A DNA stretch of 63,775 bases, filler included, from Sluysia triapertura (Eukaryota): the NCBI GenBank assembly GCA_046118255.1. It is 4 parts of 4 records of this genome, joined end to end, with 100 filler letters (N's around TTAATTAATTAA, not from the genome) between each part and the next. Parts side by side here need not be neighbours in the genome. Positions count along the whole stretch, not along the records: positions 1 to 26,615 come from JBJNIA010133065.1; positions 26,716 to 37,835 come from JBJNIA010188598.1; positions 37,936 to 51,087 come from JBJNIA010043905.1; 1 more part is not named here. One strand, given 5' to 3'. Positions 900-60,825 of the stretch are shown piece by piece; the first letter of the stretch is position 1; each line of letters opens with the position of its first letter. Under the pieces are notes generated by a model. The model saw nothing but the letters and a program-made list of their open reading frames with translations, was not told the DNA's origin and did no database searches. Position numbers and translations under genes: made by a program.

Positions 900-1900
900 G
901 CTTAATTTTTGGTAGTAATTGGCGGTCACTATCTCTTACATTTTCTAGTGTTTACAAATTAATGTTTTGTAATAATTGTGTCTGTGATTGGACGTCTAAT
1001 GAGCATTACAAAATAAAATTTGGTGAAATTTAGTTATTTTGCTGTTTGTTACTATAATTATACAGATTTATTTAACTACAACTGACAATTACTGACAGTT
1101 GCTGATATAATTTGTACATAGATACCGAATAATAGTAGTGGTAATAATACAGTAATAATAATGATAATAATGAAAATGTATATAAAACTTTCGCATAAAC
1201 TTTAATCTTTATAACATAAATTTCTTAACATAAATGAAATTCTTTTAGCAATTTTCTTTTCTTGTGTTTCTTTATATGATGTTAAATAAAAAATGCTAAA
1301 GCGTGTTTGTTGAGAGATTGTGAATTTGAAATGTTTTGGATTAATTTTAGCATGTGCATATTTGGTAGTTTAAGATGAAAATTATGATTCTAATGTTGTA
1401 AAGTTATAAGTTAAAAATGTTTTAAATGATATTTGAAATGTACATTGACAGTTTGAATGAAAATATGGTTTGGATGTTGTAGGGTTTTGAATTTGAAAAA
1501 TTTTGAAATGTGAAAAGTTTTAAATAAATCTGAGGAAGTAGAATGTAAAATGTAAAAAAAATTGTGATATTTTGCGTGAATTAGTAGTTTGAATTTCCAA
1601 TGAAAGGTTGGAAAGTATAAATTTTTAATTTTATACTGATTCAATTTTATTCGATAAAAATGTTCTTAAAATTTAATTCTTAATTTAAAATGATTTATTA
1701 ACTATTTAATGTTTAAAAATAACAAATTATTGTTTAAGACTACTGAAAAATTAAAATGATAAATTACTATTTTAAAATTATTTAAAATGAAAATGAATAT
1801 CTATTTAAAATTGTTTACGATGAAAAATGATTATATGTTTACATTTAGTTTTTAACATTTCATGATCAACTATTTCATTTTGTGTAAGTATGGGATTAAT
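900..1900 (-). repeat. Cassette family copy A (boundaries approximate)
   Basis: On the minus strand: C/A-rich block (about 1270-1700), TATGTTAAGAA...TTTATGCG (1192-1240), AAT tract, small CAACTGACA/TGACAGTTG hairpin near 1079-1101, then CCAATCACAGACACAATTATTACAAAAC (about 964-991). The last matches copy E CCAATCAGAGCACAACTAACCAAATTACAAAAG. Confidence 0.65.
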
Positions 1901-2532
1901 TTTTTTTATATTTTTCCAAACTAGTGACAAAAATGTGTGGTTGTTTTGTAGTGAAATTAAGTGAATAAAACTGCAAGGAAATTACTTTGCAATTCATTTT
2001 TAATACTTTTGATATATGATGCATTGATGAATGAAGCGTTAAAAATGATACTGTTGCTTTTGCTGCATATGAATTATATCAGTATGTGCTGTTTTTCGTA
2101 TTTACCAGATATAAGTTATTAGAAGTTATTACTCGAATGTACTATCTTGATAATTAACGCTCTTAATATTAATGTTAAATTAAAAATGTATTTTGTGTTT
2201 TAATAATATATTAATTAATATGAACTCTTGTCCTTTTGGAGATTAATTTTAATCTCTAAATTATGAAAAAAAGAAACAGTTCAACAAAAAACAAAAACGT
2301 AAGTATTCTACCTTTAACCATACTTAAATTTTATTTCGAATGTAGGCAAATTTATTTTTCTCATGTATAATATATTTTAATTATATTAATTATGTAATTA
2401 TATAATTAATATTTTAAAGCAATATAAAAAGCTTGTTATGTTATTCATATTTATAATATCTGAGTTTTGTTACTTTTTATTTTTTTATAATGTGTTTATA
2501 AGTTATTCAAAGACGTTATTTTATATTTTTAG

Positions 2533-2851
2533 GTTTTACCTGAGTAAACACAATGGTAGAGTAATAAATCTTCAACCTAACGCTGGTAATGCAGAAATAC
2601 TGGCATATTTTTACGGATCATCAAGTTCTAACTGCGTTACACCGTCACCGTCAGGTGGTGGTTCTGCTGCTTCTGGAGGTTCCAACGGTGTTCAAGCAGA
2701 AGCTGTATCACCGTCAAGGGAAAGTAGCGGTAGTGTCAATAGTCAGTTATCACATACATGTGGTGATGCAATACAATGTAATCAAACGGTAGCCACATCT
2801 CATTCACAAGGTCTACCCACATCAATTAATGCCAAAAAATATATATTACAA
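2533..2851 (+). CDS. CUL3: Cullin-3 exon (cullin homology region), apparently isolated
   Basis: The translation FYLSKHNGRVINLQPNAGNAEILAYFYG...NAKKYILQ resembles CUL3 [28 protein letters not shown]...TRKHILQV. It is bounded by a TTTTAG acceptor (2527-2532) and a GTAATT donor (2852) and has a long Ser/Gly-rich insert in the variable loop. Confidence 0.85.
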
Positions 2852-5136: not shown

Positions 5137-5225
5137 CCTACTTGCAAAATATCTGAAGAGTCGATCTGCCTAATATATACGATTTATACCACTATTAGAG
5201 ACGTATTATTAGAATTTTTATAACT
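5137..5225 (+). repeat. Dispersed hairpin-containing repeat, copy 1 (copy 2 at 52416-52506)
   Basis: TATCTGAAGAGTC...GCCTAATATATACG...GAGACGTATTATTAG is shared with 52432-52494. Confidence 0.7.
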
Positions 5226-5326
5226 TATACGTAATTTAAGGAAACTTTTGTTTATATCTTACTGTATATGTAACAATAGGTTAATCTAAACAATTAAATA
5301 TTACGTTTAAATTATAGATTTTACAT

Positions 5327-5663: not shown

Positions 5664-6939
5664 GTACAAAAAATGTTAAAATAATTTAAGTATATTTTGG
5701 TATTCCTGATATACAGTGAATACATAGACTTACCAAGGAAAAAATTACTCAGATTGCATGGATCTTAAAATTTGCTGCTAATTTTTTGGATATATTATAT
5801 TGTCGTTGCTATCGTGGTTAACGTTATTGTGAATTCTACAAAATTCTAAAGAGTTTATATAGTATATTACGCCATTTTAATTTACCTAATATTAAATATT
5901 TGCCTAAAAATAAATATTAAAATATCTAAAAATAAATATTAAAATTATTCAAAAACAATTACCCAAATTAATTATTTGAACAAAATATTTTCTTTTGATA
6001 TTTAATAATGACTTTAATTTATTTTAAATACTAATTTCTTTTTAATTTTCTTATTTTAAAATTTTTGTTAATTATATTTATTTATTAATTTTCTTATTTT
6101 TTAAAATTTTTGATTATATTTATTTAATAATATTTGTATAATAACAATAATATTTACAAGATATAAAACAAACAAAATGGAACAATCTTTACAATCCAGC
6201 TTTACAACCTAACAACCGCAAATAACAATTATGATTATAACAATAACGACAACAAGTGTGATTATTATTGTCTCCATTAATGTCATGAATATAATGAAAA
6301 TAATATTTCCAATATATTATACCTTAATACCCATAATAAAGTCGATAACAATGACGATATATGTTAACCTTTAGTGGACGAATGTTAAATCATTCTTACT
6401 CCTTGAAACTTTTATCCTGCTGTCAAGTTATGTGGAACCCAAACACCGTATTTTAGTATCTTCCTAAATAGTTTCATATGATTTAAAACGGTTTTATTGC
6501 GGTTTCCTAATATCAATAATAATTTTAATGCAATTCCTAATATTCTAAATTTACAATAAACATTCTATTGATATTTAATGTAGATATTTAAAAGCGATTA
6601 AGTGTTTAATAAATATTAAAATTCAAAATAGTTTAAAATTTGTTTTATAATTTTATAATGGAGAAGAAAATTTTAGTAAAGTTTAAAACATCATTGTATT
6701 TTTAATTTTGAAGTGGGCTTGTAAGGACATTTAATAAATACAAGAGTTATTAAATGAAGGTATATTATTGTGATTGAAATTCAATTAGTGAAGACTTCAT
6801 TTAAATTGCTTAGAGAAAATTTTATGGACTTAAAGATCTTATTAAAGTAAATATTAAATTGAAGTGTTTTCTTAAAAAATATTGATTACTTATTATAAGC
6901 TTAAAATATATTCGAGTCTTTAGAAATTCCTTAGAATTC

Positions 6940-8260
6940 TTTAATACCTAATACCTTAACAATTTTATTAAAAATTTATATTACACATTTTCAGAAATTC
7001 ATTAAAAACATTTTTGTTACATAAGTCTTCGTCAATATAACATTCACCCCCAAAATCTACAACTCACATTTCTAAATTCACAACTAATACAAAAATAATC
7101 AAAATCATATCCGTTTCAACACCACACAACAATTTTGTTAAAGTCTTCATAACCATTTTTATATCTTGTTTCTTTTTACATCCACAGAAATCAACTTCCA
7201 TTTTTCAAAACATTTCAAAATCTACAATTTACACTCTAAAATCAACATAAAACATATTAAACTAAATCAACACATTGTACATAAAACAATACTCTCTAAC
7301 ATTTTAACATTATCATATTTATCTCCTGTACATCCACTAAAACAATTCATCCCCTAAAGTCAATTTAAATCCATACCACTAATAGCTCAAAGACAAGATT
7401 ACCTAAAAACATCAAGAAAATAAATCACATTTTCAACATTGTACAATCACCTTTTGAACACACTAAAAAATAGACTATAATTTATCTTCTTTACATTCGC
7501 TAAACACTCTTCTAAATGTATCTTTAGATCACATTCTTCTAATATTTAAACATTATCTTCACTCAAAAGCATCATTTTAAACGTACAGCATTAGAACTAC
7601 AATCGCATCTTGAAATATCAACTATATGTTTAAAACCAATTCAAACTCATTTTCATTTAAAGATCTGTAGTTAAATAAATTTAACTATGTTAAGAAACAT
7701 TAAAGTGTAAAAAGAAAGATCTTGTTTCAAGTAATATCAAGAATTTATGTATTTTAGGATAGTAATAATAATAATAACATTCTTGTTGTTATCATGATTA
7801 TTATTATCACCATTTTAATTTTTATAATTATCATTGTATTTCTTGTTATTTTCAAGTTTTTAATAAGTCGAAACGTTTAAGATTCAAAAGAAAGTTTATG
7901 TGATTTTTAATTCGAAAAAGTTTATGCGATTTTAATAATAATAACACTGTGTTATTATTATTATCATCTTTATTATTATTATTATTATTATTTCATTTTT
8001 GGACATAAATAAATAATTAACTGAATATCTGCCATCATCAGCAGTGACATTTTGATTTACATTTATAATTTAACGTCATTGTTGATGATGGTTGTCATCA
8101 CAGTGTATTTGGTCATACGTCACTTTTAATTTGTGTTTTTATCATTTCAATACTTCTGGTGGACGACCAATCAAGAATTACTCAGTAATCACATAAATTT
8201 TTGTCACAATTTAAAAAATAATTTTTTATTTTCGTTTAGATAGCGGAACGGGATAAATAC
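6940..8260 (+). repeat. Cassette family copy B
   Basis: C/A-rich block 6950-7650, TATGTTAAGAA...AAAAGAAAGATC...TTTATGT (7686-7750), AAT tracts, a 20-bp-arm hairpin 8032-8051/8072-8091 (17/20 complementary), and CCAATC at 8167. Confidence 0.75.
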
Positions 8261-9779: not shown

Positions 9780-10036
9780 CTAAGAAGGTCATGTCAACAC
9801 ATCTTACAAATAGTCCATTTAAGTGATCTGAATGCATGTAAATACTCCTCCTGATTTATTTCTTTGGGGTGCGTACGTCAAAAATCCGAGAATGAAAGAT
9901 CAACTCGTGGCAATGATAATCAATTATTGCACACAAATTAATGAAGACTTGTGACGAAGTGTTTGCTATTCTGTCGTTAGGAGTGTAAAATTCATTTAAG
10001 AAGGCGGCCAACATTTTGAGCATATACTCCGTTAGA
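9780..10036 (+). mobile_element. Tc1/mariner-superfamily transposase C-terminal remnant
   Basis: The degenerate translation TPPDLFLWG...AYVKNP...QINEDL*RSVC...EGGQHFEHILR* matches the typical SPDLTPxDFFLWG...GGHFEHLL ending. Confidence 0.75.
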
Positions 10037-11899: not shown

Positions 11900-13100
11900 G
11901 TGGACTTGTAGTGGTCAATCCTAATAACCACTAAAAATTTATTAAAATTCCGCAACATCCAAATCACAATCGTATTTAACACTATCAATTTACATTAACT
12001 AATTCACAAAAAAGCATAACTCGACATTCACAATAATCCAACAACAAATTCATTCGAAATAATCCATCTAATACTTCCAAACCCTTCATTTTACGCTACA
12101 TTTTGGCAATTAATATCTAACAATCGATAACATTCATTTAATAGTTTATTCGCTTAAATCAAATCACAATCATAAACTTACAACATATAAATCACAATTA
12201 CATTTAATACCATTCCACAACACTAGTAAACCTATTTGAAAAGTATAAGATACCTAATTCATACCTTGAATCAATTACATTTCAAACTTACTATTCATCT
12301 ACACATAATCGTCATCAACATTGTGCAACAGCATTGCATTTTTTTTCTTTTAAATTCAATAAATCACAATCCATTATATTTCAATACATAAAACTTGTTT
12401 TCATACATAAAAACTTCAATTAACATTGAAGAACGTATTCTAACACACTCTAATTCACTGCAAGACTCATATCAATTATTAAACCTTCAAAGGTCAAACA
12501 TATCTATCAATTCTTTTAAAACAATTATCACTCAGCAATTTAGTCTCAAATACATTTTAATCTATTTCAACACGATAAAACTTTTCAAAAATTCAAAGTA
12601 AATCTAATACAGCTTTAAAGAATTCACTGTTATGAAACGAAGCAATAACGATAACTAGATCACAGTACGTCCTGTTATCGTTGCTCTTTCATATAATATC
12701 AGCAATTTTTATTTCATTTTATTTACATATGTCAGAATAAGAAAAGAATTTGTTAATGTTTAAAGAATTTCATGCGAATTTCATTATTCTTGTTAATAAT
12801 AATAATAACATTATTATTGTTATTATTAATATCACATATCAGAAAATAATTTCATTAAAATTTTTATGTCAAAATTTGGTCGCTACCATCACCATTGTTA
12901 ACACTATGTATCACAGTTCCCATTAATGTGTCAGTCATCAGTACTAATAATTTTTGCATGCTACCCAATCAGAGCTGATATTGTTCAATGTTCTGTCTTG
13001 AGGCTCTGATTGAATGACCAACCAAAATCGAAATTGCCGGATCTAAAAATAAAATGATAATAAAAAATTAAGCAACGAATTAAAAAGGAAAAAAAATACA
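11900..13100 (+). repeat. Cassette family copy C
   Basis: C/A-rich block 11930-12620, hairpin 12634-12655/12674-12690, TATGTCAGAATAAGAAAAGAA...TTTCATGCG, AAT tract, CCATCACCATTG at about 12886, and a perfect CAATCAGAGC (12966-12975)/GCTCTGATTG (13003-13012) inverted pair. Confidence 0.8.
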
Positions 13101-13205: not shown

Positions 13206-14191
13206 ATGACATTACCATTATATATACAACTTAAGCAGAGTGGAAGTTCAAATATTAACCTTTCTACGTATTATTGGTAGATTATGCTTCGAAAGACTAT
13301 CATCTAAATTTGTATCAAATGCATCAGTCAGTAAATCAAGTAGTGAAGAATTCAATATACTAGGTTTTAAACCTATGATTTCGACTAATAGTGATGGTTC
13401 CAATTTCGTTGCCATATGCTCCGAACTTAAATAATTTCTCATCATCAACAAGACATACTAAAAGATGTCAAAGTGTATATAAAAATAATTTAGACCTAAA
13501 TGAAATGATGCAAGATTTATTAAAAGATTTATGTTATGATTTGAATGTCACAACACTTGGTTTTATAATTCTTCAAAATGTGAGACTACTACTAAAAGCA
13601 TATAGCTGTTCATTAATTTTGATAGAAGAAGATCTGGTAACTCTTCAACCGATGCTTGTTAGTAAATTGCTTGATTTAACCAGAGATGATGTTTCGAACG
13701 AAGTTGTAAAGCATTGTCATGACAATATTATTCGAATTCCATTTAGTCACGTGGCACAAACAGTGGAATATGAAAGTGTTGAAGATGTATATAGAGTTAA
13801 ACGATCAAATGTAGAAATAGATAAATCGACTAGTAATGTTGCAAAGTGTGATTTGTGCATGATTCTAAAAGACAATACTGTTATCGTAAGCAAAATAACA
13901 CAAACAGTTAATAAAGTCAATCAATATCAGTATTCATATAGTCAAAGAGATGTCAAAGATTTTCAAAGTTGTCTAAGCTTTAGTGTGATGATTATAAAAA
14001 AGGCACAAGTTCATCGTCAATTTCAGTTACATACTCGGCAAAATCAAAACAGAACAATAAACAAACAAAACGGAATTACCGATTTAGTCACAGTCGAAGA
14101 TGGAGATGGAGATGAAGATATTCACTTCAAGAAAATATCCTTAGTAAAATTTTATTTTTTATTTTTAATTCCTTGCCATTATTTAATTTAG
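13206..14191 (+). pseudogene. Truncated, frameshifted cGMP phosphodiesterase (PDE5/6/11 type) N-terminus plus GAF-A domain, fused to unrelated sequence
   Basis: SVSKSSSEEFNILGFKPMISTNSDG, then DLLKDLCYDLNV...ILQNVRLLLKAYSCSL...LVSKLLD...HVAQT...NVEIDKST...DLCMILKD...QTVNK...KAQVHRQFQLHTRQNQ, follow the PDE GAF-A consensus. Similarity stops after RQNQ (about 14047); there is no GAF-B or catalytic domain. Confidence 0.85.
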
Positions 14192-19930: not shown

Positions 19931-20399
19931 TGCTCTAGATCCTTTAATTATAGTGATATGAGTACTGTTATATATTTTTTGTTATATTTTATTGTTTAAA
20001 TAAAGTATCAAATTTTATCATTGTATTAAACTCTTTACTTTTTAAAGGCATTAGGCCTAATTCATTGATAAAAAATTTTGCATTTCACTAATTGTTGTTA
20101 AATTAAAGTTCGATGGTTTTTTAACTAAATTGTTAAATTTCTATAATACCTATTCGAAAATAAATTAAATTAAACATAATTTATTAAAATCAAATAGTAC
20201 TAATTATAATTTATTAGAATTAAATCTCACAACGCCCTTCACATTCATTATCACCAAAATACTAACATAACCAAAATCATATCTTTTTAACATCACATAA
20301 TTACTTTTTAGAATTTATTATTATTTATTATTAATTTAAACAAAAGTTATTTTTAAGTTTGTTATTTTAGCCACGTATACTCCGATTATTGAAGCTCAC

Positions 20400-21620
20400 G
20401 TTTCATTATCTAAAATAAAATGAAAAATTAAGTTATCATTTATATCATGATAAAAAATATTTACTGTATGATTAACCATAGATCTAACATTGCCGAATAT
20501 TTCTGAAGCTGATATTCCTATGCATTCGAGTAAATTTGTAATTCTAGACAAATGATCTGTGTTAGATATATTTTCGGATTATGATTCGATAATTGGTTAA
20601 CTGCGTGTATATATACACACTTAACTCCAAATTTTGTGCATCTACCATTTATATCACTACTGTATGGGCGCACTGCTGTTCTAATATATTGATTTGATCT
20701 TAATGAATTATTGAAATAGTTGTGAGACAGTGAACTGATGGAAGATACATTAAATTCTTGGGTATATAGCAAAAATCACGACATTTATAAGGAACAGCAT
20801 AATGATATACAGAAAATATTTTCAAATTTTCTTTATATTTATCTTTATACTCAATGCTTAACTGGGATGCATTTATTCGTAAAACTTTATTTGAAATTAA
20901 ATTTAGGCTTGCATTCATTGATCTTATTATAAACGTTTTGATGATATTTGCGTTTAGTAGATTATCTTCTTTAACTCGTATGTCAACCATAAGCATTCTT
21001 TTACCTGTGACGGAATAATCATTAACTATATCAACAATTATTGGTGCGAAATTTACACTTTGATTCAGATCAATGACATCAACATGACTAATTATATCTG
21101 CTCTTATTCGAAAACTCAGACTTCTTTGAATCATCTCAAATTTGTCTTTATTATTTTCAAGTAATTCGGTACGAATTATCATCACAAATTCATAGAAAGC
21201 ATAATCTTTTAAATTTTTATTTGATCTTTTCATTTTTAAAAACGAATAGCATTGAGAAAATATACAAGTTTAGTTGCAAATGCTTAATCTCGTTTTGTTG
21301 TCGAAACTAGTGATGAGAGTTCTTAAATTAATTACATTCACGTTTAATTACATTTAATATATTTTCATGGTAATCTATATGAGTAATGATCTGCTCTAGA
21401 TATTGATTAGTAAATTGTCTTGAAACACCAATATCGACTCTAGGATAGAAGACATATAAATAGATATAATAAATAGGGATTTCATCAATTTTTTTCGAAT
21501 TGCTGATGCATATGCGTTTCTGTCGTACCTCATGAAATGTTATTACTCGTATTTGAAATAAAAATATCTTTCTATTATTAACACGTATTAACACAGATCA
21601 ATTATTAACCATATCATCAA
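20400..21620 (-). pseudogene. Disrupted coding-like cargo downstream of cassette D, weakly cadherin-like
   Basis: Consecutive minus-strand ORFs (21328-21594, 20700-21233, 20518-20772). HVDVIDLNQSVNFAP...IRVKED is reminiscent of a cadherin linker, but the similarity is weak. Confidence 0.3.
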
Positions 21621-21699: not shown

Positions 21700-22738
21700 T
21701 GTATAAGTATTTTGATACATAATAATAATAATAGGTTCTGTTGTCATAATAACATATAAAAAGCAAAGTTTTTTTATTCTTTAAACACCAATGTTATTCT
21801 CAAAATTAGCTATGCCGATTTAGCAACTTATAATTGCAATTGTGATAATTATAGTATCACTATCTTTTAGCACGAATCAAATTGTAACAACATAAGAGCA
21901 AAAGGGAGATTGTCTTGATTGGTTGTTCAACCAGAGTGATAAAAATAATGATAAGAAACTCTATGGTTGGACACCAATAATAGCATTAAAAACAAAACAT
22001 GATTGACAGGCAAGCCACTATCAATTGTGACAGGAATTTATACATAGAAACCAATAGTGTCACCATTGATAGAGGTAATTACTGGTTATATGATAAAACA
22101 AAAATAAAAAATAATGAAAAATAAAGATGATAAAAATAACAATAACAACAATTTTTTCATTGTTATAAATGCATAAAGTCTTTAGATTACTTTCTTTTAA
22201 TTCGTTATTATTTCTTGACATATTTATATCTATTTAAAGTAGTTTAATGTTATGATGTCACCAATCAAAGTTACGTGTTTGGAATGAATTTTACGGTTTA
22301 GTTGCGATTCTAGTGTCATATGATAATGAGTAAAACGTTTTTGAATGAATTTTTAAATATTAATTAATGTTTTTGACTGAAGATGAGCTTGAGTGTTGAA
22401 AGCTTATGATTTAAGTATTTGAAATAATATAAATGCTTTACGTGGATTTTAAATGTTTATTAATGTTTCGAATGAAAGTATTGTTCGGATGTTAAAATAT
22501 GTTGAAAGAGAGTAATTTCGTGGATGTGAATAAGATACATTATAGGCTATGTTTTGGTAAATTCTAAAAAGTAATGATATTTGATTTTTGATATGATTTT
22601 TGGTATGTTAGTATTAAATATGTATGAAATGTTTATGATTAATTTTTTTGAATGTGAACTGTAGACTTTAAGAGTGAATGTGATTTTGTTGTATTAAAAG
22701 GAAAGATTTTAATAAAATTTGTTAAAAGTAATAGATTG
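21700..22738 (-). repeat. Cassette family copy D
   Basis: On the minus strand, TATTACTTTTAACAAATTTTATTAAAAT and CATTCACTCTTAAAGTCTACAGTTCACATT...AAAATCATATC match copy B 6951-7110. Also AATATGTCAAGAA...TTTATGC (22171-22224), a hairpin 22015-22032/22058-22075 (16/18), an inverted pair CAACCAGAGT/ACTCTATGGTTG (21928-21969) and CCAATCAAG at about 21914-21922. Confidence 0.8.
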
Positions 22739-22739
22739 G

Positions 22740-23830
22740 TCACCACACAGAAGGAATTAATCCATCCTGATGCTTGTCTCGAACATATTCACATTCTCCA
22801 GACTCTTTTACATGCCAGCACAACTCACTGTCCAAAACCTCCACTCTTTGTCTAATGGTTTAATATCTCTAATGCTTTTGGTTCCGTGCCACACGATTAT
22901 CTGTTTGACTCCTTGAGATATCTGGTTTCCAAAAACCAACACTCCTGCTACTACAGGAACTGTACAAAGACAACTCCTGCACATACTCCCTTGGCCGTCA
23001 TACTTCGACTTCTGTTCCTGCAAAAGTTGGTGCTAAACAAGGATGTTCTTTGTCAATGAAACTCTTTTGTCGTGCCATCGAACAACTGCTTCGCTTTGTT
23101 ATCCGTAGTGTTTCTGCCTTCACTTACTTTAGCTCCTCGTTTACTCGACTTGTTTACGCTGATGATATCATGGTTGTATCCAACTACCACCAATCTCTTC
23201 AACAGACTTTAAATGATCTTGCCGTACTATATTCATACATCAACCTAAAATTTCGCCCTGATAAATGTTGGCTTTCTTAACCCTGACAATTCTGAAGCGC
23301 ACCTTACTAATTATAATTCCTCTCTTCATATCATTAATTCAGAGGTAAAATACACTTATCTTAAATCAAAAATTGGAAGTGCAAAACACTTAGCAATTGA
23401 ATCTTTACTGCATACTGCTCTCTCTGATTGATTTAGATTATTAGAATCCGAACTTCATCATGTTCAAAAAATCCGAGCTATGAAAATCTTTATTTTGTCT
23501 CGCTTCCTTTATCGATTTAGAGCTTGTAAAATGCTACGAACGCCGCTTGGGAATGCACGAATGCACTACAAGGATAGGATGATGATAAGGACTCACCCTC
23601 TTTTGATAAAAGCTTTAGAAATATCCTGATGTCAGCTCTTCAAATCCACTTTCAGTCAATATCTACTTCCTTTAGACTACTATCGATCCTGGAGGACTTG
23701 GCTATACTTCTCTTCACAACGAATACTTAATTCAAACTATAGTTCACTGTTTCCGTATCTTTACCTCTACCGAAAATACTCTTCGATCTTTTCCATAGAA
23801 TTCCTTAAAGAGGACCCTAAACTCTACTAT
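22740..23830 (+). mobile_element. Degenerate non-LTR retrotransposon reverse-transcriptase fragment (R2/NeSL/Utopia-like)
   Basis: WFNISNAFGSVPH (about 22856), GAKQGCSLSMKLF, LVYADDI, NLKFRPDKC, YTYL and PGGLG motifs in the expected order, with stops and frameshifts. Confidence 0.88.
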
Positions 23831-26715: not shown

Positions 26716-27540
26716 CATTAAAGATTAAAATAACTTCAACCTTTTAACAAGCATTTTAAACTCAAATCTAATGCATAAATCTTGTTTTCAAACTATAAAC
26801 CTTTTAACAAGCTTCAACAAATTATCCTAACATTATTCATTCATTTACAACTTTAATCATTACACGTTTCAAAACAAATTTCAAATAACTTTAAAGATTG
26901 TATTGTTTTACTGTGAAGAATCAACCACAAACGATACATCTTACCCTTAATTGTTGTTGCTCCTTCACAGTACATTTGTCTTTATCATTCTTATTTCATT
27001 TTTATATGTAAGAAGAGAAAAAGATACAAAAGAACAGATCATGTGTTTCACAGATTGAAGATTTATGCGTTGATTTCTTTTAAAAGTTTTGTAGTAATAA
27101 TAATAACAATAATTCCATCGTTTTTACTACTACTAATATTATTGTTATTATTATTATTAAATTTATTAGCATTTAAATCCAGGCATATAAATATAAAATT
27201 AAAAATTAAATTAAAAATATAAATTACAATAAGTCGATTAGACTGCTTGATGCCATCACCAATGCTGACAGCCTATGTCACATTAACATTGAGCTGTCAG
27301 CCTTGATGATGGTCGGCCATCAGTCACATTCATCACGCCAATCAGAGCACAACTAACCAAATTACAAAAGACAAATACCAACGCTCTGATTGAGCAAACA
27401 AAAATAGGGCAGGTAAAGCTGAAAATAGTAATAACAATTAAAATTTTTATTAACAATTAAGTTTCAATACGATTACAATTTTATACCTCTAAGTGTCCTC
27501 AAAATATTCATTTTTTGTTGTTTCAAATTTTCTACATTTT
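26716..27540 (+). repeat. Cassette family copy E (best conserved; 5' part cut by the gap)
   Basis: C/A block, hairpin 26909-26930/26951-26972 (19/22), TATGTAAGAAGAGAAAAGATAC...TTTATGCG, AAT tract, hairpin 27253-27272/27293-27312 (18/20), and CAATCAGAGC (27339-27348)/GCTCTGATTG (27383-27392). Confidence 0.85.
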
Positions 27541-27542
27541 AA

Positions 27543-29059
27543 ATGGATTCAAATAATTTAAAGCTATCGTTGAATGTGAACAATATCGTTGATCTAAGAA
27601 CAACAAAGTTTAATGCAGATAGTTCGTCTTCAAAAATTATTTCATCGATGACCAAATCCATTAAAAACAAAGATCAACTTGTAATACATTCAAAGAGTAG
27701 ACTAAAACATGCAACTCAATTGGGAAATGAATTGGATGTTTTTTCTAAAAATATGACAAAAAGAAATTCCATGAGTGAACAAAATTTAGAAATTTATGAT
27801 CTACCTACGGTTTATTCGATGATACTATTGACTGTGTCTACACATAAACAGAAACACTCGAATGAAATCAAAGTTAAATTTTGCCGTCACAAAACTTACG
27901 AAAGTATGTCAGATCACAGAGAAATCATTATGATTCTGAAAAGTAGTATTAGAGATTTTATAGCATTTACCATCAAGATGAACCCATTCAAAGTAACGGC
28001 TAGTCTAGCAAACCAAGCAAGTTTGGAATTCACAATGAATAAAATATCTTCAACCAAGTCAACTGTTAGAGAAATCTTTAAGCATTATATATGTACAAAT
28101 CCATTTTATTATCAACCAACATCAGAATTATGCAAACTCGAATTATATTTGTGTATAGGTGATGAATATTATGTTTCCATACAAAATGTGACAAGAAATG
28201 TGATATCACAAAAGTTGGAAGATCCTCAAATGAATGAACAATATTTCAGGTTGATGATTCTGGTCAATATACCGTTAAAGATATCTACAATTGAATTTAA
28301 AGTGAACAACAAGTTTTTACAATCATCTAACAATCTAATGCACCAACTCTTGATTTATGTTGTACACAAGATTTTAAAGTGTATATCCAACCTATGGCCT
28401 TTCCATGTAATCAAAAGAAGTACTGATGGAGACGAAGATTATGCTGATTTTAACATGTTACGTACGTTTTATCAAAAATGCATGCCATTTTGCTTTTTTT
28501 CGTCTAATTATAATGTTAGTAGTGAATTTAAATATTTAAATATTAATTCTTTTATTAGGTCAAATGCAATTTGGATTCTTAGAAGGTGGATGCCAGATAC
28601 AGAATTGTCGACGATTTTTTTAATTCAACTAAAATTTTATTAGATTTAATAAATGTATATCTTTTCTGGTTAATTCAAAGTTATTCTAATATTGTAATTT
28701 TAATGAATAAAAGTAATTCAGAACTTCAGTTCAAAACTTTAAGTAAGAAATGGGCAAAACTAAGTAAATTAAATGAGCAAATAGACATGAATTATTGTAA
28801 TGATAAAGATATTCATCACAATGAATTAAATGAAGTTTTAACATTAGCTTTGAATAATATTTTAGTTAGGAAAACTAATAAATTACCTTTAAATAATAGA
28901 CTAGTTTATAAAACGTTGACGCTCTTCAATTTTTGTCAGTACTTATACAACCAAAGATGTTGTCTAGAGGCCCTCTTAAAGAAACCATTTTCACAAACAC
29001 ACCCAAAATGTGAATTAAAAAATATTACTAAATTAATTTGGCACAAGCACATTAATTAA
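27543..29059 (+). CDS. Orphan intronless ORF (366 aa) with an overlapping 157-aa continuation (frameshift or short intron); product unknown
   Basis: A long ATG-initiated ORF in very AT-rich DNA, directly downstream of cassette E. No family recognised. Confidence 0.6.
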
Positions 29060-32133: not shown

Positions 32134-32134
<1 letters not shown>

Positions 32135-32189
<55 letters not shown>

Positions 32190-32207
32190 GTATTAGTATT
32201 AGTATTA
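32135..32207. repeat. (ATT)n microsatellite with a (TAGTAT)n tail
   Basis: Seen directly. Confidence 0.97.
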
Positions 32208-35200
32208 CATTGAAAATATAAAATATAAATATATGATACACAAATTTAAACATAAATACATATCTCTGTTCTTTTAAACTTCTTATCCTTAAAATGTATA
32301 AATCTTTGTGCTTACAAGAACTTACATAAATATGACATATTTATAATTAAAAGTGGTGACAACTGTATGACGAATTGTTTGATGATATTGAAACGCAAGT
32401 GTTTTCCATGTTAAAAGTATTTATATTTATTCTAACTCTTAAAATTTATTTTGTTTTCTTTTGAATCTTGAAATTCAAAATAAACATAACATAATAATTT
32501 AACTAATACTGTAGTGGAGAATGTATGAATGCTATAAAATGGTTTAGGAAAATATTGTGTAAATTGAAAATTTCAAATATAATCTTTATGTTTAATATTA
32601 AATTCGTTTTACACTATCTTTGCAGAGATTCACATATTATTTGGTATTTGCGTATCATATCTGAATATTTGGTGTATGAATGTTTAAAGGAATGTTATAA
32701 TTATAATATTAAAGTGTAAGATGTGCGAAGCATAAGGATTTATTTAGTGATTTCGTGTTTTAGTGACACGGAATTATGTTGTGGTGGTATTTTATTAGTG
32801 TTTAAATATAATTCATATGCGTTCTAGATGATCTACATGATGAGTTCATTAAGTGAATTATTTATTGTAAAGTATTGTTATTCTTTATTTTAGAAATGTG
32901 CAGATCTGAAGTGTATGTTGTACTCATGCTTTATATTGTATAGATATAAACTGTTTGAGCTTGTAGCTGATTTGTAGAATGGATTTGTTAATTGTAATGT
33001 TACTGTTAGGTAGTTTAAGGTTTAAAATATTTGATTGAGTTGCTTGGTTTTGATATAAAATGTAAGAGACTGTGAAATGCTTAAGGATTATGTGATTTAG
33101 ACTGGAAATTTTGTTTTGAGTTAAAATTTTGTTAGTTGATTTTGTAAAAAATTCAAATGAGTTTGGCTTCCACAAAAGACTATCTAAGTTATTTGATATA
33201 TGTTATAGAGTCTAATCTAAGTTGCAAGAGTATTCGATGTTTTGATTGCAAATTAAATTGACAAAATGATACCCAATGTAACGAACTCCACATCTACACA
33301 TCACAATCATAAACACAATCTGTACATCACAATCAAAAATCAAGACTTCATACATAAATAAAACGCTAAATAAGTTACTTGATACATTCAAAACATAATC
33401 TCAGTCACAATTTATAACTACCATAATCTTTCAATCATTGTTATCATAATTGTTATTACAGTAATAACTACTATTGTTCTTGTAACTTTTTGATTGGTAC
33501 TATAATAATAATTATTATTACTATAAATGCTATATTTGTTTGTAACTATTGCTATTACCATTGTATTTTTATGTATGCATGTTTAATTATTTTTTCTTGC
33601 ATATTTATTATTATTTTTTATTTCTGTTCGATATATTTAGATCCACGATGAACTTAAGGAAAATTATATCATGTTATAAATTTAATAATTATTTACGAAA
33701 AGTCAAAACATTAGTTAAAATAAAAATTTGTTAAATTTTCAAAATAATTTTTAAATTATTATTTTTATTATTATTAATTAACACTTAATGAAAGATATAA
33801 AAAAATAATCGATTACTGTTATATTATTAAATTATGCGATTAAATTATGTTATTAACGTCTTGGCCGCTTTGATATTTAATGGATTATCTTTACATTGTA
33901 CTAAATTTGATGTCATATATACTCGGCCAAATATATTACAAATTTGAGTGATAATACATTTTCAAATTCAATACATGAGATTTCGTCAATGAAACTAACA
34001 TATCATGTTACAATACTTTACAGCACAGACGATACAGTCAAACCTAACATTGATTGTTTAAGCTCAATAAAGGTACTCATGCATGAAGTGTTTGTTTTAT
34101 CCATATTTATTATCTTGTTTATTTCGTTAAATAAAATTTGTTTAAGTAATTTTGTTAATTTGTTATTAAAATTATTCATTGATTTAAAAGGTCTTAAGCC
34201 TAATTTGTTTTATAATTTGTTGATATTTAAATTGTTTATCGTAATTAAAGGCATTAAGCCTAAAGTGTTCATTAAATTTACTGAATTAAAAGTTTATATT
34301 TTAATTAAAATCTTTTTAAGATTTCTTGATAAAACAATTATAAGTCATCCAACACCCATGTTAGCTTTTTATGGCACTTATAAATTCATATTTTAGGCAA
34401 CTGTTATCTATGAACACTTACTAATCAAATCTTACTTAAGAAGAATTATTATGTCTACGATGAAACATAATCCCCTCAATGAACTATGTTATATTTGGGT
34501 ATTGGTTGTAAACTAATAAGACGAAAATCTACAATTCTTTTTTATATTTTCTTTTACTATATGTTAACATTTTCAATAATCAAACATAAACTATATTTTA
34601 AATAAATATACATATGCAGCAATGATAAATAATGTGCAAAACAATTATTACATGGTACAGGTAGTAATAATATAAAATAATGTATGTAGAATGTTAAAAT
34701 AAAATATTTCAAAATACATTGTAAATATAAATGTACCGAAGTTATTTCACTAAGGTTTTTTCCTTCATAAATGTAATAGGTTTTTATTAAAAAAGAGCCT
34801 ACAAAAATAAACTAACAAATTCTTCAATTAATATATAAGATTAATTAATTAAGATTCGATCTAATATGACTGATAGTGTCAGGTGATCCGAGGTCCGAAA
34901 TATGTCTGAAGAGTTACGATAATCAGAAACAAAAAACTTTTAACAAATTATTTAAAACATTCATAAATCATTTCAGTCCTTTAAGATAAGATTCTGTAAT
35001 ACCTTTTTCTAAAATACGATTAATATTTTGTATGAAACCGGCAAACATGTGAATTCCATAAAATAATTTTAATAATTTTTTGACACGCAAAACATTTTAA
35101 TGATTTTTAATCTGCATAATTTTATATTTATAAAATGTTTTGTTTTACCAAAAATTAATAAAAATGCCCAATTCTCATAATTTCTTTACAATTTCATATA

Positions 35201-36409
35201 ATTGTGATAGAACTAGAACTAGAACAACAACAACAATAATAATAATGTAATAAATATTAATGAATGAATGAAAATATAATAAATATTAAAATGTTAATAA
35301 TACAATTAAACATATTAATGAACGATAATAATGTTACCTAATGGTAAAACAGATTAAAAATGCTAATAAATTGAGTAATAAATTAATGTGATTAAATAAA
35401 AATAATTAATAAATGTTGAAAATGATGTTAATAAATTATACTGATTAAAAATAGTATTTTCAATTGTAATAGAATGACTGCATGTATTTGAATGTGTATG
35501 ACAAATGATTGTAATAAATCATATTGGTAAAATTCGAAAGTATGTTAATAAATTATAATAATAATTTTTATGCAAAGAATTAAAGTTTTAATTTTTCTTT
35601 AATTTTAGATATTGTTCAGGAATGTAATAATAATTAATATTGATACAGATTGTAGATAAAATTTATATATGATTTTGAATACATAGTAAATTATATATGC
35701 GAGAAAAAGTATAAGTAAAATGTTGCAAGTATAAATTTGTCACAAGTAATAGTTAATCGATTATATCCTATTTTGGCGCAATTCAATTCAATATTGTCCA
35801 GTTGATAATCAAATCATGTTCGATTATGATTCAGTTCAATCCCGTAACACTTAATTGTTAACTAAATTATATTTGACCTTAGTTCAAATCAATTGATAAT
35901 TAATCTATATTTGGTCTCGGTTCAATAAACTTTCATTGACAATTAAATTTGACTCTAATTCGAGTTGTATTTGACTAACAATCATATCACACTTGATCAA
36001 ATTACTAAGGTGATTCATTTTGAAGTTAGTATTATTTTCCAGTACAATATACAAATTTTTTTTGTCCTTTTGTAAAATCAATAGAAATAAAAAGATTAAT
36101 AACGTTATATAGTCTTAATTAATGTTTTACAAAACTTTTAATATACATTGCATGATCTTATCTTATTATAACTAAAATTGTATTTCTTGTGTATTATTTA
36201 ACACATTACGTGTTATGTCATTCATATATTCAGGACAGTAAAAAAATTAAAAAATACATCTAAAGTTAATAAAAACATGAGAAATTAATTAAATTAATTT
36301 TATTTTGTGCGATAAAATATTGAATAAATTTCAGTTGCCTTAAGACACAAATTAGTTTAATTGATGAATGCACAAAAATTACGTTTTAGCTGCCCTAAGC
36401 AAGCTATTA

Positions 36410-36960
36410 TTATTGACTTTGCTCTTTCTCAAATAAAGATCTTACATTATCTGTTTTATAAAATATCATTTGAGGCATTGCGATATAAACCATTTTAATA
36501 GTCGATATATGAACATTGCTATATGCCAAATGAAATGTAGTCCAACCATTCTTATTTACAATCAAAAAAACCTTCTTTTTCGCGTAATAAAATATAAACC
36601 ATTTCATTCATGATAATTCCTTTGGTAATTCACTAATAATGTAAGGGGCATCCACGGGAACTTTTTTAATGAATTAACAATTTTTGAGTAACATTTGACA
36701 CCAACCAATTTAAGCAATTTATACTTTCATACTGACAAGAATGATGGAATGCATTTTTATAAGAAATATTTCCAAACAATAACGCAAAACATTTACATAA
36801 TCAATGCAAGCTAAATGTATAATATTTTGATTTAATTTGTTCATTATTCTTGATACTATTTTATTTTTTGAAAAATTTTTATAATTCTCTACTTCTTGTC
36901 TGTTCTACCATTTTAATTTACAGTATTTTCAACCATGATCTTATTTTTGTGCCTCATTTC
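36410..36960 (-). pseudogene. Degraded ankyrin-repeat gene fragment
   Basis: NKNGWTTFHLAYSNVHISTIK fits the ankyrin GxTPLHxA consensus. An upstream HLACIDYVNVLRY segment is similar. Multiple stops. Confidence 0.6.
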
Positions 36961-37835
36961 GATAGCCAATTTTTATTGATTAATTTCCTATAATTTTCGC
37001 TTGTGATTTGGTCAATTAGTGTGAAAAATTATTCCTCAAATTCTAGTGTAAGAATTAACAGTGACGTAACTGTTGATTATCACATAATTTGCATAATGTC
37101 GATTATTCAAAAGACTACATGAAATTAATTTATTATTAATAATTATTATTATATTTTTAATGTTATAGTTATATTAAAATAACATATAAATCATATGAGA
37201 TTCTCATAAAATTACTCATTTAATACTTAAAGTAATATTTAATACTAATAATCGCAAATAATATCGAATAATAGAATGCCTGAGAATACTTTGTGGTGCT
37301 CTAATTATGCTCGAATGTTAATCGAATGTCTGAAAAAGGGAAATAAAACCACTTTAAATTGAGATTATAAAGAAATCTAAATCAATATTATGATTGATTA
37401 TGTGAATAAAATTATTTTAAATTAAGATTATGTAGAGAGAAAATGAAATCTAAATTATATAAACACTAAACTCTAATGATTGTGTGAATAAAATCATTTT
37501 ACACGCAGTAATAGTAGGAAAATAATGATACAGAATATAATAATATTTGTACGAATGACTGAATATAACTAATAATAATAAATAATAATAGTAGTAATGA
37601 AATAAATGTATTTACATTTAAAATTTTCATCTACAGTAATAACAATAAATAATAATTTGGTATGTAAATGCTTGCTTGATAAAATTAAAGTAATATTAAA
37701 TATCTTAATAAAGGAAAAGAACTTTATTATAGATTTATTTTTTATCATTTTATATTCTATTTGTGGAATATATGCGCAATTCATTTAGTATTCTAAACAA
37801 TATTTTACGTTGTATTCTTAAACAATTTTATTTAT

Positions 37836-37935: not shown

Positions 37936-38520
37936 AAAAATCAAATAAACTCCAATCTCTGTAACAAACATTCTAAACTTAAACCTTTCAACAACATTTA
38001 ACGACTCTACATCCTCATCCATCTTATAGTACTAAATATGTCAGAAGAAAGGATTTAATTAAAGAAAAGATCTTGTGGTAAAATAGACAGAGATATTTAT
38101 GTATTGTATCTTTAATTATTATTATTACTATTATTATTTGTTGCAGTATCCCTATCAATTTAATATTATTATTAATCCTTATTATTAATATTATTATTGT
38201 TATTATTATTATTACAGTTATTATTATTATTGTTCTTTATTAAATTATTATTGTCAACTTTCATTATTATTGCTACTTATCATCATGTACTATTATTTTC
38301 GCCATCATTCATAAGTACTGCATGATGATTAATAGTACAAGTAATAGTGTGAATAATCGTCAGTACTATTTTACTAAAAACGTCACTGCTACTATTATTA
38401 CATAATACAAGCGCATTACGGCGTAATTCTATACACCCACTTGCTGCTGCAATAAAAACCAAAACATTATCTATGGTTTCAGCCAATAAGAAAGCAGCCA
38501 AAAAATTATTAAGAAGTGTA
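37936..38520 (+). repeat. Cassette family copy F (5' part cut by the gap)
   Basis: C/A block, AAATATGTCAGAAGAAAGG...AAAGAAAAGATCTTG...TTTATGT (38034-38102), ATT tract, GCCATCA (38301) followed by an AGTACTG...CAGTACT inverted pair, and CAGCCAATAAG at 38480. Confidence 0.72.
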
Positions 38521-38985
38521 GAACAAAAATCATCAGACTGACGAATAAAAAATTAAAAAATTATTAGATGACCAATAAAAAAGTTAATCAATAATTATTT
38601 TGGCAGCCATTAGAGAGAAAGAAAAAAAATTTGTTGGTGTAAAAAATTAATCACAATCATTACCTACAAAAATAAGCATTTGGCATCCATATTGGCAATA
38701 AAAAATAAAAGTTAATCAGACGGCAGAATTTTAAAAAAAAGTATTAGCCAGACATTACTAAAAAATTAATTTGGACAGTTCTTCCCAGAATTTAATAATA
38801 ATCATAAGTAACGGCAATATTGTAAAGAGTTAAATTAATCAAAAAAACGTTTTAAAAAATTAAGCATCAGACAATATCAAAGAAAAATAACAAGACAGTA
38901 AACTAAAAAAAGGAAAAGATATTATCTTGTTAAAATAATCAACAATAACAGCTAATAATATACTTGTCCACCTCAATTCGACGTC

Positions 38986-40884
38986 ATGCAATCGAGAATT
39001 GCAGGAGTTCGGACTGTCTCTGATTACCAATATCGCGATTATGATAACTCCTATAACAATGAACAGTCGAAACCACGATATTATCGAGACTCACTTAAGC
39101 ATTCAGACAATAATATTCTATGCTTCACAAGAAATTACTATCAATATTTGCCTCAACTCGGTGATTCATTAGATCTGTTACAAGAACGTTTCGAAAATGT
39201 GAAAGAGCATGTAGAAATCTTACACTTGATAGATAATCAGGAATCGTATAATTTAACAAGGCCAGAGTTTAAAAATTCATTTTCTGCTGATGGCTTAAAG
39301 AAAGTCAAATCGACTAATAAAGCGAATCTGATTTTCCTCAACTGTTATCAACGCAATGTATTAAATAAATGTTCAGTTTTGTCCCAACTTGAAGATCAAG
39401 TTTGTAGGAAGACACTCGAATTGATGCGATCAGAAAATTTTAATTCTGGCTTAAATGATCCAACTGGTCCCAGAAAACGTAGATTTGTTACTCTTAATGG
39501 TGAAATTGATCATATTCAAGTGAAGTGGATTTATAAAGAACCGGAAAATACAACCTCAGAAACGAATGATCGTGTATTCAAGTTCGTCCACGATAATATA
39601 TTCAATGTAAATCATGTACATAATTTTGAGCAATGTAAACACGATGTTCTTAAGTCGGTGTATGCGATGTATGATGATTTTCTTAAGTCGATGTATATTA
39701 GTGCATTGAAGTTAACATATAACAATCTATCCAAAGTGACGTATGATGATGTTTTTAAGCCGGCGTATATTAGTACTTCCAAATTAGCGTATAACAATCT
39801 ACCCAAGGTGATGTATGATGATATTTTCAAGTCGGTATATTACAACGCTTCCTATGTAAAATGTTTAGTGTACGGTGATGCTTTCGAGTTAACATGCGAT
39901 GACGTGTTCCACGTAAAACTCATATGCAACGATAAGCAAGGCAAAAATGGCGTATCTGGTTTTGAGCACGAAGATGCATTGGATATGAGATATGTAAACG
40001 TACTGACATGTGACAAACAGTGGACAACCGATATCAAGTATTTGGCAATGGCAACCACATCAATCCGAAACTATTGTAATGTAGCCGATAGAATCAATAC
40101 AAGTACTATCAAACAAGGTAACATAATTAATTTTTATTCTAAGATCTTCGAATTTGATATTATTAACTATCCTGAACATGTTACACAATATATTCCTTAT
40201 TATTTTATTTACAGACCTATACGCGACGTGATCGGGTCCACGAAGAACCAGACACAGCTGAGCCGGAGCCCTACCGACATTTTATGTGTGATTAATACTA
40301 ATAATGTACCAATAAATGTTTTTATTCAATATTTTTATTATAAGAATACACCTGCAAATAGGGATAAAGCTTCGATAAACGTCTCTGGTAGACAGTTTCG
40401 TTATGACAATTTAATTTTAGATCATATAATAAATGCAACATTAATAAACTCCTTTTATCCTGATAATAACTATATCGGAAACAACATTAAGTTTTATAGT
40501 AAAATCAGATCAAATAAGATTCATTATAGAATCCACTGTATAATACAGATAGTTAATTCATCTAAGTACTACACGGAGGCTAAAATTGCCAATTACTTAA
40601 AAGTCATTAAAAGCCCAACTAAGAATTCTCTAATCGAAGTAACATTCTCCAGTACTTCGGCCTCTAGTAAGTATATGCAATGTTACGTTTTAACGCAAGG
40701 ACAACCCTTCATAAGTCATCTAACAAATAATCGTTACATTCTAAGACTCACGCAACATCGACATCACCTCTCTCCAGAGCCAGCTAAACACTTAATGTAC
40801 ATCGAAGCTCATAACCTTTTTGATTTAACTAAACAACCAAAACAAAATATTACTATAAATATTACAGTCAGACTAATTAATTAA
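38986..40884 (+). CDS. Orphan intronless 632-aa protein with internal 24-aa repeats; product unknown
   Basis: 1.9-kb uninterrupted ATG-initiated ORF. MYDDFLKSMYISALKLTYNNLSKV / TYDDVFKPAYISTSKLAYNNLPKV / MYDDIFKSVY repeats lie at about 39668-39843. Confidence 0.75.
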   Translation: MQSRIAGVRTVSDYQYRDYDNSYNNEQSKPRYYRDSLKHSDNNILCFTRNYYQYLPQLGDSLDLLQERFENVKEHVEILHLIDNQESYNLTRPEFKNSFSADGLKKVKSTNKANLIFLNCYQRNVLNKCSVLSQLEDQVCRKTLELMRSENFNSGLNDPTGPRKRRFVTLNGEIDHIQVKWIYKEPENTTSETNDRVFKFVHDNIFNVNHVHNFEQCKHDVLKSVYAMYDDFLKSMYISALKLTYNNLSKVTYDDVFKPAYISTSKLAYNNLPKVMYDDIFKSVYYNASYVKCLVYGDAFELTCDDVFHVKLICNDKQGKNGVSGFEHEDALDMRYVNVLTCDKQWTTDIKYLAMATTSIRNYCNVADRINTSTIKQGNIINFYSKIFEFDIINYPEHVTQYIPYYFIYRPIRDVIGSTKNQTQLSRSPTDILCVINTNNVPINVFIQYFYYKNTPANRDKASINVSGRQFRYDNLILDHIINATLINSFYPDNNYIGNNIKFYSKIRSNKIHYRIHCIIQIVNSSKYYTEAKIANYLKVIKSPTKNSLIEVTFSSTSASSKYMQCYVLTQGQPFISHLTNNRYILRLTQHRHHLSPEPAKHLMYIEAHNLFDLTKQPKQNITINITVRLIN

Positions 40885-60824: not shown

Positions 60825-60825
<1 letters not shown>

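What the first reader, a model, noticed from the sequence alone, without database searches (positions are those of the whole stretch)
900..40884. Dispersed modular 'control cassette + interchangeable cargo' system
Seen in the sequence: at least six diverged copies (A ~900-1900 minus, B 6940-8260, C 11900-13100, D 21700-22738 minus, E 26716-27540, F 37936-38520) share one module order. The order is a C/A-rich G-poor block, an optional hairpin 1, TATGT(C/T/A)A(A)GAA...AAAGAA...TTTATGC/T, an AAT tract, a CCATCA-type hairpin 2, then a CCAAT box or a CAATCAGAGC/GCTCTGATTG inverted pair. Copies C, D, E and F each point into a different cargo: a PDE GAF fragment, a disrupted weakly cadherin-like ORF set, a 366-aa orphan and a 632-aa orphan. 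Cargo of A and B is not identifiable. Weaker look-alikes precede the ankyrin (36960-37300 minus), PP2A-B55 (57850-58250 minus) and RPN1/CDS (17750-18170) fragments. I see no transposase, TIR, LTR or poly-A tied to the cassette. Inference: this is a non-autonomous gene-capturing element with its own promoter (comparable to Pack-MULE or Helitron capture), or integrated copies of minicircle-like episomes made of one control region plus one cargo. I recognise no described family with this layout.
Basis: partly seen in the sequence, partly recalled or inferred. Interest (0 to 1): 0.9.

Follow-up and report, generated by a model that had tools for sequence, protein, structure and literature searches.

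The report
Hairpin repeat heading host gene fragments
A diverged, roughly 1.2-kb repeat with hairpins and promoter-like boxes recurs six times in an animal genome, four times just ahead of broken or reshuffled gene copies, and is most likely the front end of a gene-capturing mobile element whose type could not be pinned down.

Summary
The repeat is real. B–D (614 nt aligned, 73%) and C–E (491 nt, 79%) align colinearly far above shuffles. All six copies keep the motif order; 0 of 300 shuffles gave a full set. A and F are partial members. Hairpin 2 keeps its pairing through changes on both arms (6 of 16 pairs, 4 copies). Corrections: the window is four pieces joined by N linkers, and E and F are cut at piece starts. 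F's 'orphan' begins with a degenerate ADPRM-like phosphoesterase fragment. D's cargo ends in a CCCH/Unkempt-like finger; cadherin and RPN1 were not confirmed. The three 'look-alikes' do not align with the family. Four of six copies have a same-strand, intronless ORF or fragment within about 500 nt; none of five ordinary gene starts has the core motif. No second flanking copy, TIR, TSD, Helitron 3' end, subTIR or poly-A was found. Best reading: the promoter-bearing 5' end of an old non-autonomous element that captured partial mRNAs, working like LTR-mediated retrocopies without meeting their definition. Nothing supports circles. No genome, reads or parent genes were available, so mechanism and copy number are untested.

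The parts
940..1760 (-). Copy A (partial member): C/A-rich block about 1226-1700, core motif at 1232, CCAATCA at 991; no hairpin 2; no cargo identified
   Evidence: C/A block aligns to D; not recovered by leave-one-out; nothing downstream in Pfam
6930..8200 (+). Copy B: C/A block to about 7650, core motif 7686 with a second partial core about 7860-7960, AAT tracts, hairpin 2 about 8031-8092, CCAATCA 8167; no cargo identified
   Evidence: Pfam blank for 8200-10200
11908..13040 (+). Copy C: C/A block, hairpin 1 12627-12696, core motif 12728, decayed hairpin 2, inverted CCAAT pair 12965-13013
13210..14188 (+). Cargo of C: frameshifted, intronless N-terminal piece of a PDE5-type phosphodiesterase, ending after GAF-A
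   Evidence: PDB match E 5.5e-17 over aa 40-223 of ORF 13379-14188; the upstream frame's PDE likeness is my recall, not a call
20190..20320 (+). Truncated extra C/A block, inverted relative to D, 82% identical to D over 62 nt and about as similar to B
20521..21597 (-). Cargo of D: disrupted ORF set; unidentified 89- and 189-aa pieces followed by a CCCH/Unkempt-like zinc finger fragment
   Evidence: Pfam zf-CCCH_UNK E 1.4e-4, below the curated cut-off; PDB tristetraprolin 0.0017, Unkempt 0.008; no cadherin hit
21895..22745 (-). Copy D: C/A block, core motif 22222, hairpin 2 22015-22075, CTCTGGTTG..CCAATCA 21936-21922; head-to-head with a LINE RT remnant
26716..27415 (+). Copy E (5'-cut by piece start): hairpin 1 26909-26972, core motif 27005, AAT tract, hairpin 2 27253-27313, inverted CCAAT pair 27338-27393
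27543..28643 (+). Cargo of E: intact 366-aa ORF without detected homologue, overlapped at its end by a 158-aa ORF (28583-29059)
   Evidence: chance of an open frame 1e-14
37936..38520 (+). Copy F (partial member, 5'-cut by piece start): end of C/A block, core motif 38037, long ATT tract, a different hairpin about 38279-38332, then a CCAAT-rich spacer to about 38950
38986..40884 (+). Cargo of F: intact 632-aa chimeric ORF; first ~190-200 aa a degenerate ADPRM-like metallophosphoesterase piece (GNHE reads DNQE, C-terminal half missing), then ~440 aa without homologue, with an in-frame 72-nt tandem repeat at 39666-39842
   Evidence: the name ADPRM for PDB 2nxf is recalled

Best explanation
The cassette is the 5' end of an old, diversified non-autonomous mobile element that carries its own RNA polymerase II promoter (CCAAT boxes at its 3' side) and structural cis signals (hairpins). 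Element transcripts were copied by a reverse transcriptase supplied in trans, which switched template onto host mRNAs and so placed partial, intronless, sometimes multi-gene pieces behind the cassette. Most cargo then decayed (C, D); some kept an open frame and may be new genes driven by the cassette (E, F). Shown: homology and order of the modules, conserved pairing of hairpin 2, same-strand cargo behind 4 of 6 copies, host origin of three cargos. Inferred: promoter activity, mobility, the RNA route, selection on E and F.
For: Two colinear subfamilies, B/D(/A) and C/E. Hairpin 2: 86% of cells paired, 6 of 16 pairs with changes on both arms, 0 of 500 column shuffles as high; only 4 copies and a structure derived from them. 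Core motif upstream of 4 of 4 cassette cargos, 0 of 5 ordinary gene starts. Chance that 4 or more of 6 copies have a same-strand ORF start within 500 nt is 7e-5 to 5e-4 under my rough count of 12-20 starts. Cargo is partial, lacks poly-A (longest A run 3-8) and in D and F is chimeric, the traits listed for LTR-mediated retrocopies (PMC5131818, passages). PDE homology runs 184 aa without an intron while ordinary genes here have 33-35-nt introns about every 100-200 nt (Ndr, read by eye). The gypsy and LINE remnants in the window are also C>G on their sense strand, like the C/A block.
Against: No second copy in direct orientation closes any cargo, and no shared 3' end exists (best of 28 pairs only equalled its null maximum). 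No convincing TG..CA end or primer-binding site (loose CA-TGG sites in B, C, D, F; none in A, E). Two of six copies have no detectable cargo. Three degenerate host fragments (CDS, ankyrin, B55) lack the core motif upstream, so such fragments arise here without it. Intron loss is not proven: no parent gene was found, and four of eight phosphoesterase homologues end at about the column where F's homology ends, which may mark an exon boundary and would fit DNA-level capture of one exon.
Confidence: 0.4

Rival explanations
1. Rolling-circle (Helitron/Helentron-like) non-autonomous element: the cassette is the essential left end, and variable 3' ends arise by bypassing the terminator, capturing flanking DNA or existing retrocopies.
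For: One conserved end with no shared far end, several hairpins and a central microsatellite. C and D can be read as starting A|TC. [quoted passage not shown]
Against: No hairpin+CTRR end near any cargo; no shared subTIR; no RepHel domain in the 16 + 127 ORFs scanned; cargo appears intronless; the TC in D may belong to the adjoining LINE frame.
Confidence: 0.2
2. Promoter donor, not carrier: the cassette is a dispersed repeat (for example solo LTRs or a large SINE-like element) that moves alone; retrocopies are common in this genome and persist or stay open mainly when they land behind it.
For: Two copies without cargo, three fragments without the core motif, variable spacing to cargo (about 150-500 nt), no common 3' end.
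Against: Four of six is high for independent insertion, and decayed cargo (C, D) would gain nothing from a promoter now.
Confidence: 0.2
3. Host promoter of a fast-evolving, stage-specific gene class, spread by segmental duplication and ectopic recombination with no transposon machinery.
For: CCAAT boxes in both orientations; intact 366- and 632-aa frames; hairpin pairing conserved across diverged copies.
Against: Cargos are unrelated to each other, so whole-gene duplication cannot explain them; a 1.2-kb promoter with four hairpin modules is unusual for a compact genome (general knowledge).
Confidence: 0.1
4. Integrated copies of episomal circles made of one control region and one cargo.
For: Strong strand skew confined to one block and stem-loops resemble replication control regions; dicyemids have thousands of small circles with shared motifs (PMC6543705, passages). 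E and F pieces begin within about 4 nt of the same homologous position.
Against: No terminal repeats in any of 4 pieces; no permuted copy; E and F continue for 9-10 kb into ordinary genomic DNA with SINEs and spliced genes; dicyemid circles are non-coding or mitochondrial and 0.6-0.8 kb.
Confidence: 0.07
5. Compositional coincidence of AT-rich, skewed, microsatellite-bearing DNA.
For: Most pairs align weakly; plain blastn and single-sequence nhmmer found only short pieces; A and the look-alikes fail the stricter tests.
Against: B-D and C-E at twice the null maximum; leave-one-out recovery of five copies.
Confidence: 0.03

Closest known systems
LTR-mediated retrocopies (Drosophila and other animals; maize Bs1)
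   Same: Partial, intronless, poly-A-less, sometimes multi-gene cargo next to an element end that can act as promoter (PMC5131818, PMC5470649; passages).
   Different: Those are flanked on both sides by the same LTR element; here one module only, no twin copy, no clear LTR ends or primer-binding site.
Helitrons / HelibatN3, Helentron-derived HINE and DINE-1
   Same: Non-coding element with hairpins and a microsatellite, an essential conserved left end, variable right end, gene capture (PMC4778049, PMC4067079; passages).
   Different: No CTRR end with hairpin, no subTIRs; cargo appears to be spliced.
Pack-MULEs and animal Pack-TIRs
   Same: Non-autonomous elements holding fragments of different host genes (PMC8277862, passages).
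   Different: No matching inverted termini or TSD; only one truncated inverted C/A block faces D; capture there is at DNA level.
Dicyemid extrachromosomal circles
   Same: Shared short motifs across otherwise unlike sequences in a compact animal genome (PMC6543705, passages).
   Different: Those are free 0.6-0.8-kb circles without nuclear gene cargo; these units are embedded in linear pieces.
Terminons (rotifer Penelope-type retroelements)
   Same: Retroelement arrays with host genes caught between elements (PMC6431247, passages).
   Different: No hammerhead ribozyme, no telomeric repeats, no element ORFs.

Membership tests
LTR-mediated retrocopy | Cargo flanked on both sides by the same LTR element in direct orientation | tested here: not met
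   No twin copy or shared 3' end behind C, D, E, F; C's far side is interrupted by a gypsy remnant
LTR-mediated retrocopy | TG...CA ends and a primer-binding site after the 5' LTR | tested here: inconclusive
   Loose CA-TGG sites in 4 of 6 copies, none conserved
LTR-mediated retrocopy | Partial, intronless cargo without poly-A, possibly multi-gene | tested here: inconclusive
   Partial, no poly-A, chimeric in D and F; intron loss not checkable without parent loci
LTR-mediated retrocopy | Microsimilarity at switch points | not testable with these tools
   Parent mRNAs and element consensus unavailable
Helitron | 5' TC after a host A | tested here: inconclusive
   Readable in C and D, not B; edge uncertain by about 10 nt
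Helitron | 3' GC-rich hairpin followed by CTRR then T | tested here: not met
   The only site in the window is at 54197, unrelated to any cassette
Helentron/HINE/DINE-1 | 11-15-bp subterminal inverted repeats shared by family members | tested here: not met
   One 11-mer with a mismatch in C, none in A, B, D; E and F lack their 5' ends; nothing shared
Pack-MULE / Pack-TIR | Matching long TIRs on both sides and a TSD | tested here: not met
   Only 20190-20320 faces D; it is truncated, as close to B as to D, and no flanking 7-11-bp duplication outside the block was found
LINE-mediated retrocopy | 3' poly-A tail with 5' truncation | tested here: not met
   Longest A run 3-8 nt after cargo; cargos keep N-terminal and lose C-terminal parts
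Terminon / Penelope-type | Hammerhead ribozyme in the terminal repeat | tested here: not met
   Rfam: only two tRNA-like hits at gathering score; one chance-level hairpin hit at E 0.45 in 6800-38700
Episomal minicircle | Circular form with head-to-tail junction | not testable with these tools
   No reads could be examined; no terminal repeats in 4 of 4 pieces

The most novel reading that the evidence does not exclude
A genome-wide, one-ended 'gene-birth cassette': a self-propagating promoter and hairpin module with no partner end, maintained under selection for structure, that repeatedly fuses to pieces of host mRNAs (possibly through circular intermediates) and yields expressed chimeric proteins such as the 632-aa phosphoesterase-derived ORF. 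It would occupy about a tenth of the DNA in regions like this one.
Probability: 0.12. Interest if true: 0.85.

Novelty: new variant of a known kind. Interest (0 to 1): 0.5.

Why it matters
Gene capture by mobile elements is known, but six copies in 64 kb, four with different cargo and two of those with long intact frames, would be an unusually dense source of new chimeric genes in a compact animal genome. If the one-ended layout holds genome-wide, it would not fit the LTR, TIR or Helitron definitions and would make the origin of orphan genes in this lineage directly testable. If young copies show ordinary ends, it is one more uncatalogued transposon family.

Tried and rejected
No whole genome is held. 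One public run holds part of the region (share 0.54, contigs only, no RNA holder listed); no reads were laid, so depth, junctions and expression are unexamined. Earlier findings: nothing by place, sequence or words. Parent of the PDE cargo not found by word-seeded search at near or longer lengths. 366-aa ORF: no hit and only a sub-threshold Pfam row; its single-sequence model had pLDDT 31.5 and was not searched. C-terminal 439 aa of F: no real hit; no likeness to the E ORF. Motif scans of viral contigs: one match inside an unrelated phage-like ORF and one blank. Metagenome scan with the Snail-like protein gave 3 distant zinc fingers only. Exact look-ups of window ORFs: 0 of 3, 0 of 5, 0 of 7 in the collection, so the organism is unidentified; an orthonectid-like source was only a guess from intron size and base composition. 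The gypsy remnant has no LTR pair and is unrelated to the cassette. tblastn of cargos against the window found no second copy. G-T versus A-C mismatches favour different strands in B and in D/E, so a strand-specific RNA structure was not adopted. A first profile run timed out and was repeated with filters. Literature: a search for minicircle/extrachromosomal/host gene fragments/control region terms returned 0 papers with 4 of 6 terms; some searches listed only the known systems above. The library lacks most subscription papers and Repbase/Dfam were not available, so 'not described' is not established. No supplements were read.
Full report
Setting. The window is AT-rich (about 25% G+C) animal DNA: it holds a Snail-family zinc finger gene and spliced genes with very short introns (Ndr; GT-AG gaps of 33 and 35 nt at 55005-55037 and 55147-55181, read by eye). 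It consists of four pieces (1-26615, 26716-37835, 37936-51087, 51188-63775) joined by 100-nt N linkers. Whether these are scaffold gaps or artificial joins is unknown. No genome is held and the organism stayed unidentified.

Is the repeat real? Yes for B, C, D and E, partly for A and F. Plain blastn shows only scraps, and single-sequence nhmmer finds only C-E. Composition-aware alignment against local shuffles gives B-D 167 over 614 nt at 73% (null max 78) and C-E 145 over 491 nt at 79% (null max 71); 9 of 15 pairs beat all 60 shuffles (AAT tracts unmasked). With masking and the whole window as target, B and D find each other first in the C/A block, the core and the tail; C and E do so in core and tail. 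So the C/A block is homologous sequence, not just shared composition. The core motif occurs 9 times; the six named copies alone carry the full ordered set, and none of 300 shuffles did (motifs taken from the copies, so partly circular). Leave-one-out profiles recovered B, D, E, F (core) and B, C, D, E (tail) at rank 1 above six shuffled windows, and A not at all. A joins through its C/A block (108 with D).

Anatomy. From 5' to 3': 500-750 nt with about 20% C and 4-6% G; hairpin 1 in C and E (z about -3; 1 of 12 pairs compensated); the TATGT..GAA / AAAGA / TTTATG core; an AAT-then-ATT tract; hairpin 2; and CCAAT boxes, in C and E as a 10-11-bp inverted pair, in B and D as CTCTG(G)T(G)G..ACCAATCA. 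Hairpin 2 keeps 86% of cells paired across B, C, D, E with 6 of 16 pairs changed on both arms; no column shuffle of 500 reached this and slid controls were lower. Four sequences and a structure derived from them make this suggestive, not proof. Wobble mismatches favour the sense strand in B and the antisense strand in D and E, so I read the stems as inverted repeats, not as a defined RNA fold. Rfam finds no family. C and D share a weak 5' edge (46 versus null max 45). No shared 3' end was found among 28 pairs of downstream regions.

Cargo. C leads into a frameshifted PDE5-type fragment, continuous over 184 aa of GAF-A (E 5.5e-17) and stopping there. D leads into broken ORFs that end in a CCCH/Unkempt-like finger (weak hits); the cadherin idea found no support. 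E leads into an intact 366-aa ORF with no homologue. F leads into an intact 632-aa ORF whose first ~190 aa match calcineurin-like phosphoesterases at up to 33% (best E 4.9e-11; 23 hits; 11 of 12 tested hits carry Metallophos; family profile hits PDB 2nxf at 7e-80, which I recall as ADPRM). The GNHE motif reads DNQE and the C-terminal half is absent, so it is unlikely to be an active enzyme; the remaining ~440 aa are unmatched but open (chance 2e-15) and hold an in-frame 72-nt repeat. A and B have no detectable cargo. The core motif lies upstream of 4 of 4 cargos, 0 of 5 ordinary gene starts (starts placed by eye) and 0 of 3 other degenerate fragments. A rough chance estimate for 4 of 6 is 7e-5 to 5e-4. 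The cassette-free CDS, ankyrin and B55 fragments show that this genome makes such fragments without the recognisable module, or that older copies have decayed beyond detection.

How it most likely works. I favour (0.4) a non-autonomous retro-type element whose promoter-bearing 5' end survives and whose transcripts picked up host mRNA pieces by template switching. Partial, chimeric, poly-A-less cargo is what Tan et al. describe for LTR-mediated retrocopies (PMC5131818, passages; review PMC5470649, passages). The defining twin LTR is missing, so this is a 'works like', not a membership. Intron loss is inferred only: no parent was found, and the phosphoesterase piece ends near a column where four of eight homologues also end, which could be an exon boundary. 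A rolling-circle element with 3' bypass (0.2) explains one conserved end and a variable far end (PMC4778049, passages; PMC4067079, passages), but the 3' hairpin-CTRR and subTIR tests failed. A repeat that moves alone and merely lends its promoter (0.2) fits the empty copies and the cassette-free fragments. A host promoter class (0.1) and integrated circles (0.07; compare PMC6543705, passages) remain possible. Pack-MULE/Pack-TIR membership (PMC8277862, passages) fails: the one inverted block facing D is truncated, as close to B as to D, and has no TSD.

An unexplained detail. The pieces holding E and F begin within about 4 nt of the same homologous position in the C/A block (78% over 50 nt), and a third piece begins in a reverse C/A-rich stretch that does not align with the family. 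Three of six inner piece ends in skewed DNA has P about 0.02 on a generous count (F's first 150 nt fall below the skew threshold used for the base rate). The simplest reading is assembly breaks at near-identical copies elsewhere, which would mean younger family members exist; a natural molecule end is not excluded.

Novelty and score. Gene capture by mobile elements is known; this layout matched none of the five systems compared, and searches showed no description of it, but repeat databases and most subscription papers were out of reach. With one window, no reads and no parents, I rate it a new variant of a known kind, interest 0.5. The bolder reading, a one-ended gene-birth cassette active genome-wide, gets probability 0.12.

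Noticed in passing
window 41290-41448, 47219-47378, 50001-50060, 59614-59770: Four copies of a tRNA-derived SINE-like repeat on the minus strand, 77-86% identical.
   Followed up: partly
window 14750-17450 minus: Broken Ty3/gypsy pol remnant (RT, RNase H, integrase) with several stops and frameshifts and no LTR pair; a second integrase scrap at 48189-48305.
   Followed up: partly
window 22735-24050 plus: Degenerate LINE-type RT remnant whose truncated 5' end abuts the head of copy D.
   Followed up: partly
Possible decayed copies.
   Followed up: partly
window 56351-56650 plus; 56901 minus: Another C/A block (2 of 6 weak matches) and an isolated core motif on the opposite strand.
   Followed up: partly
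window 54144-54342: About 200-nt element with perfect 26-nt terminal inverted repeats, TA-flanked, MITE-like.
   Followed up: no
window 50800-51087 minus: Looks like a mariner-type transposase remnant at a piece end; read by eye and recalled, not tested.
   Followed up: no
window 57300-57850 minus: Degenerate N-terminal PP2A-B55 fragment (E 1.2e-10) with an internal duplication 57295-57383 / 57465-57563; no core motif upstream.
   Followed up: partly
window 19431-19688 plus; 36400-36850 minus; 20042-20068 and 34245-34275: Degenerate CDP-diacylglycerol synthase and ankyrin fragments and a short repeat shared by two other loci that reads like an ankyrin motif on the minus strand.
   Followed up: partly
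window 24821-25549 plus: Intronless Snail-family zinc finger gene, apparently without a SNAG motif at its start (the SNAG motif is recalled).
   Followed up: no
window 5144-5229 and 52426-52512; 17647-17728 and 48322-48403: Two further small dispersed repeat pairs, 82% and 73% identical.
   Followed up: no
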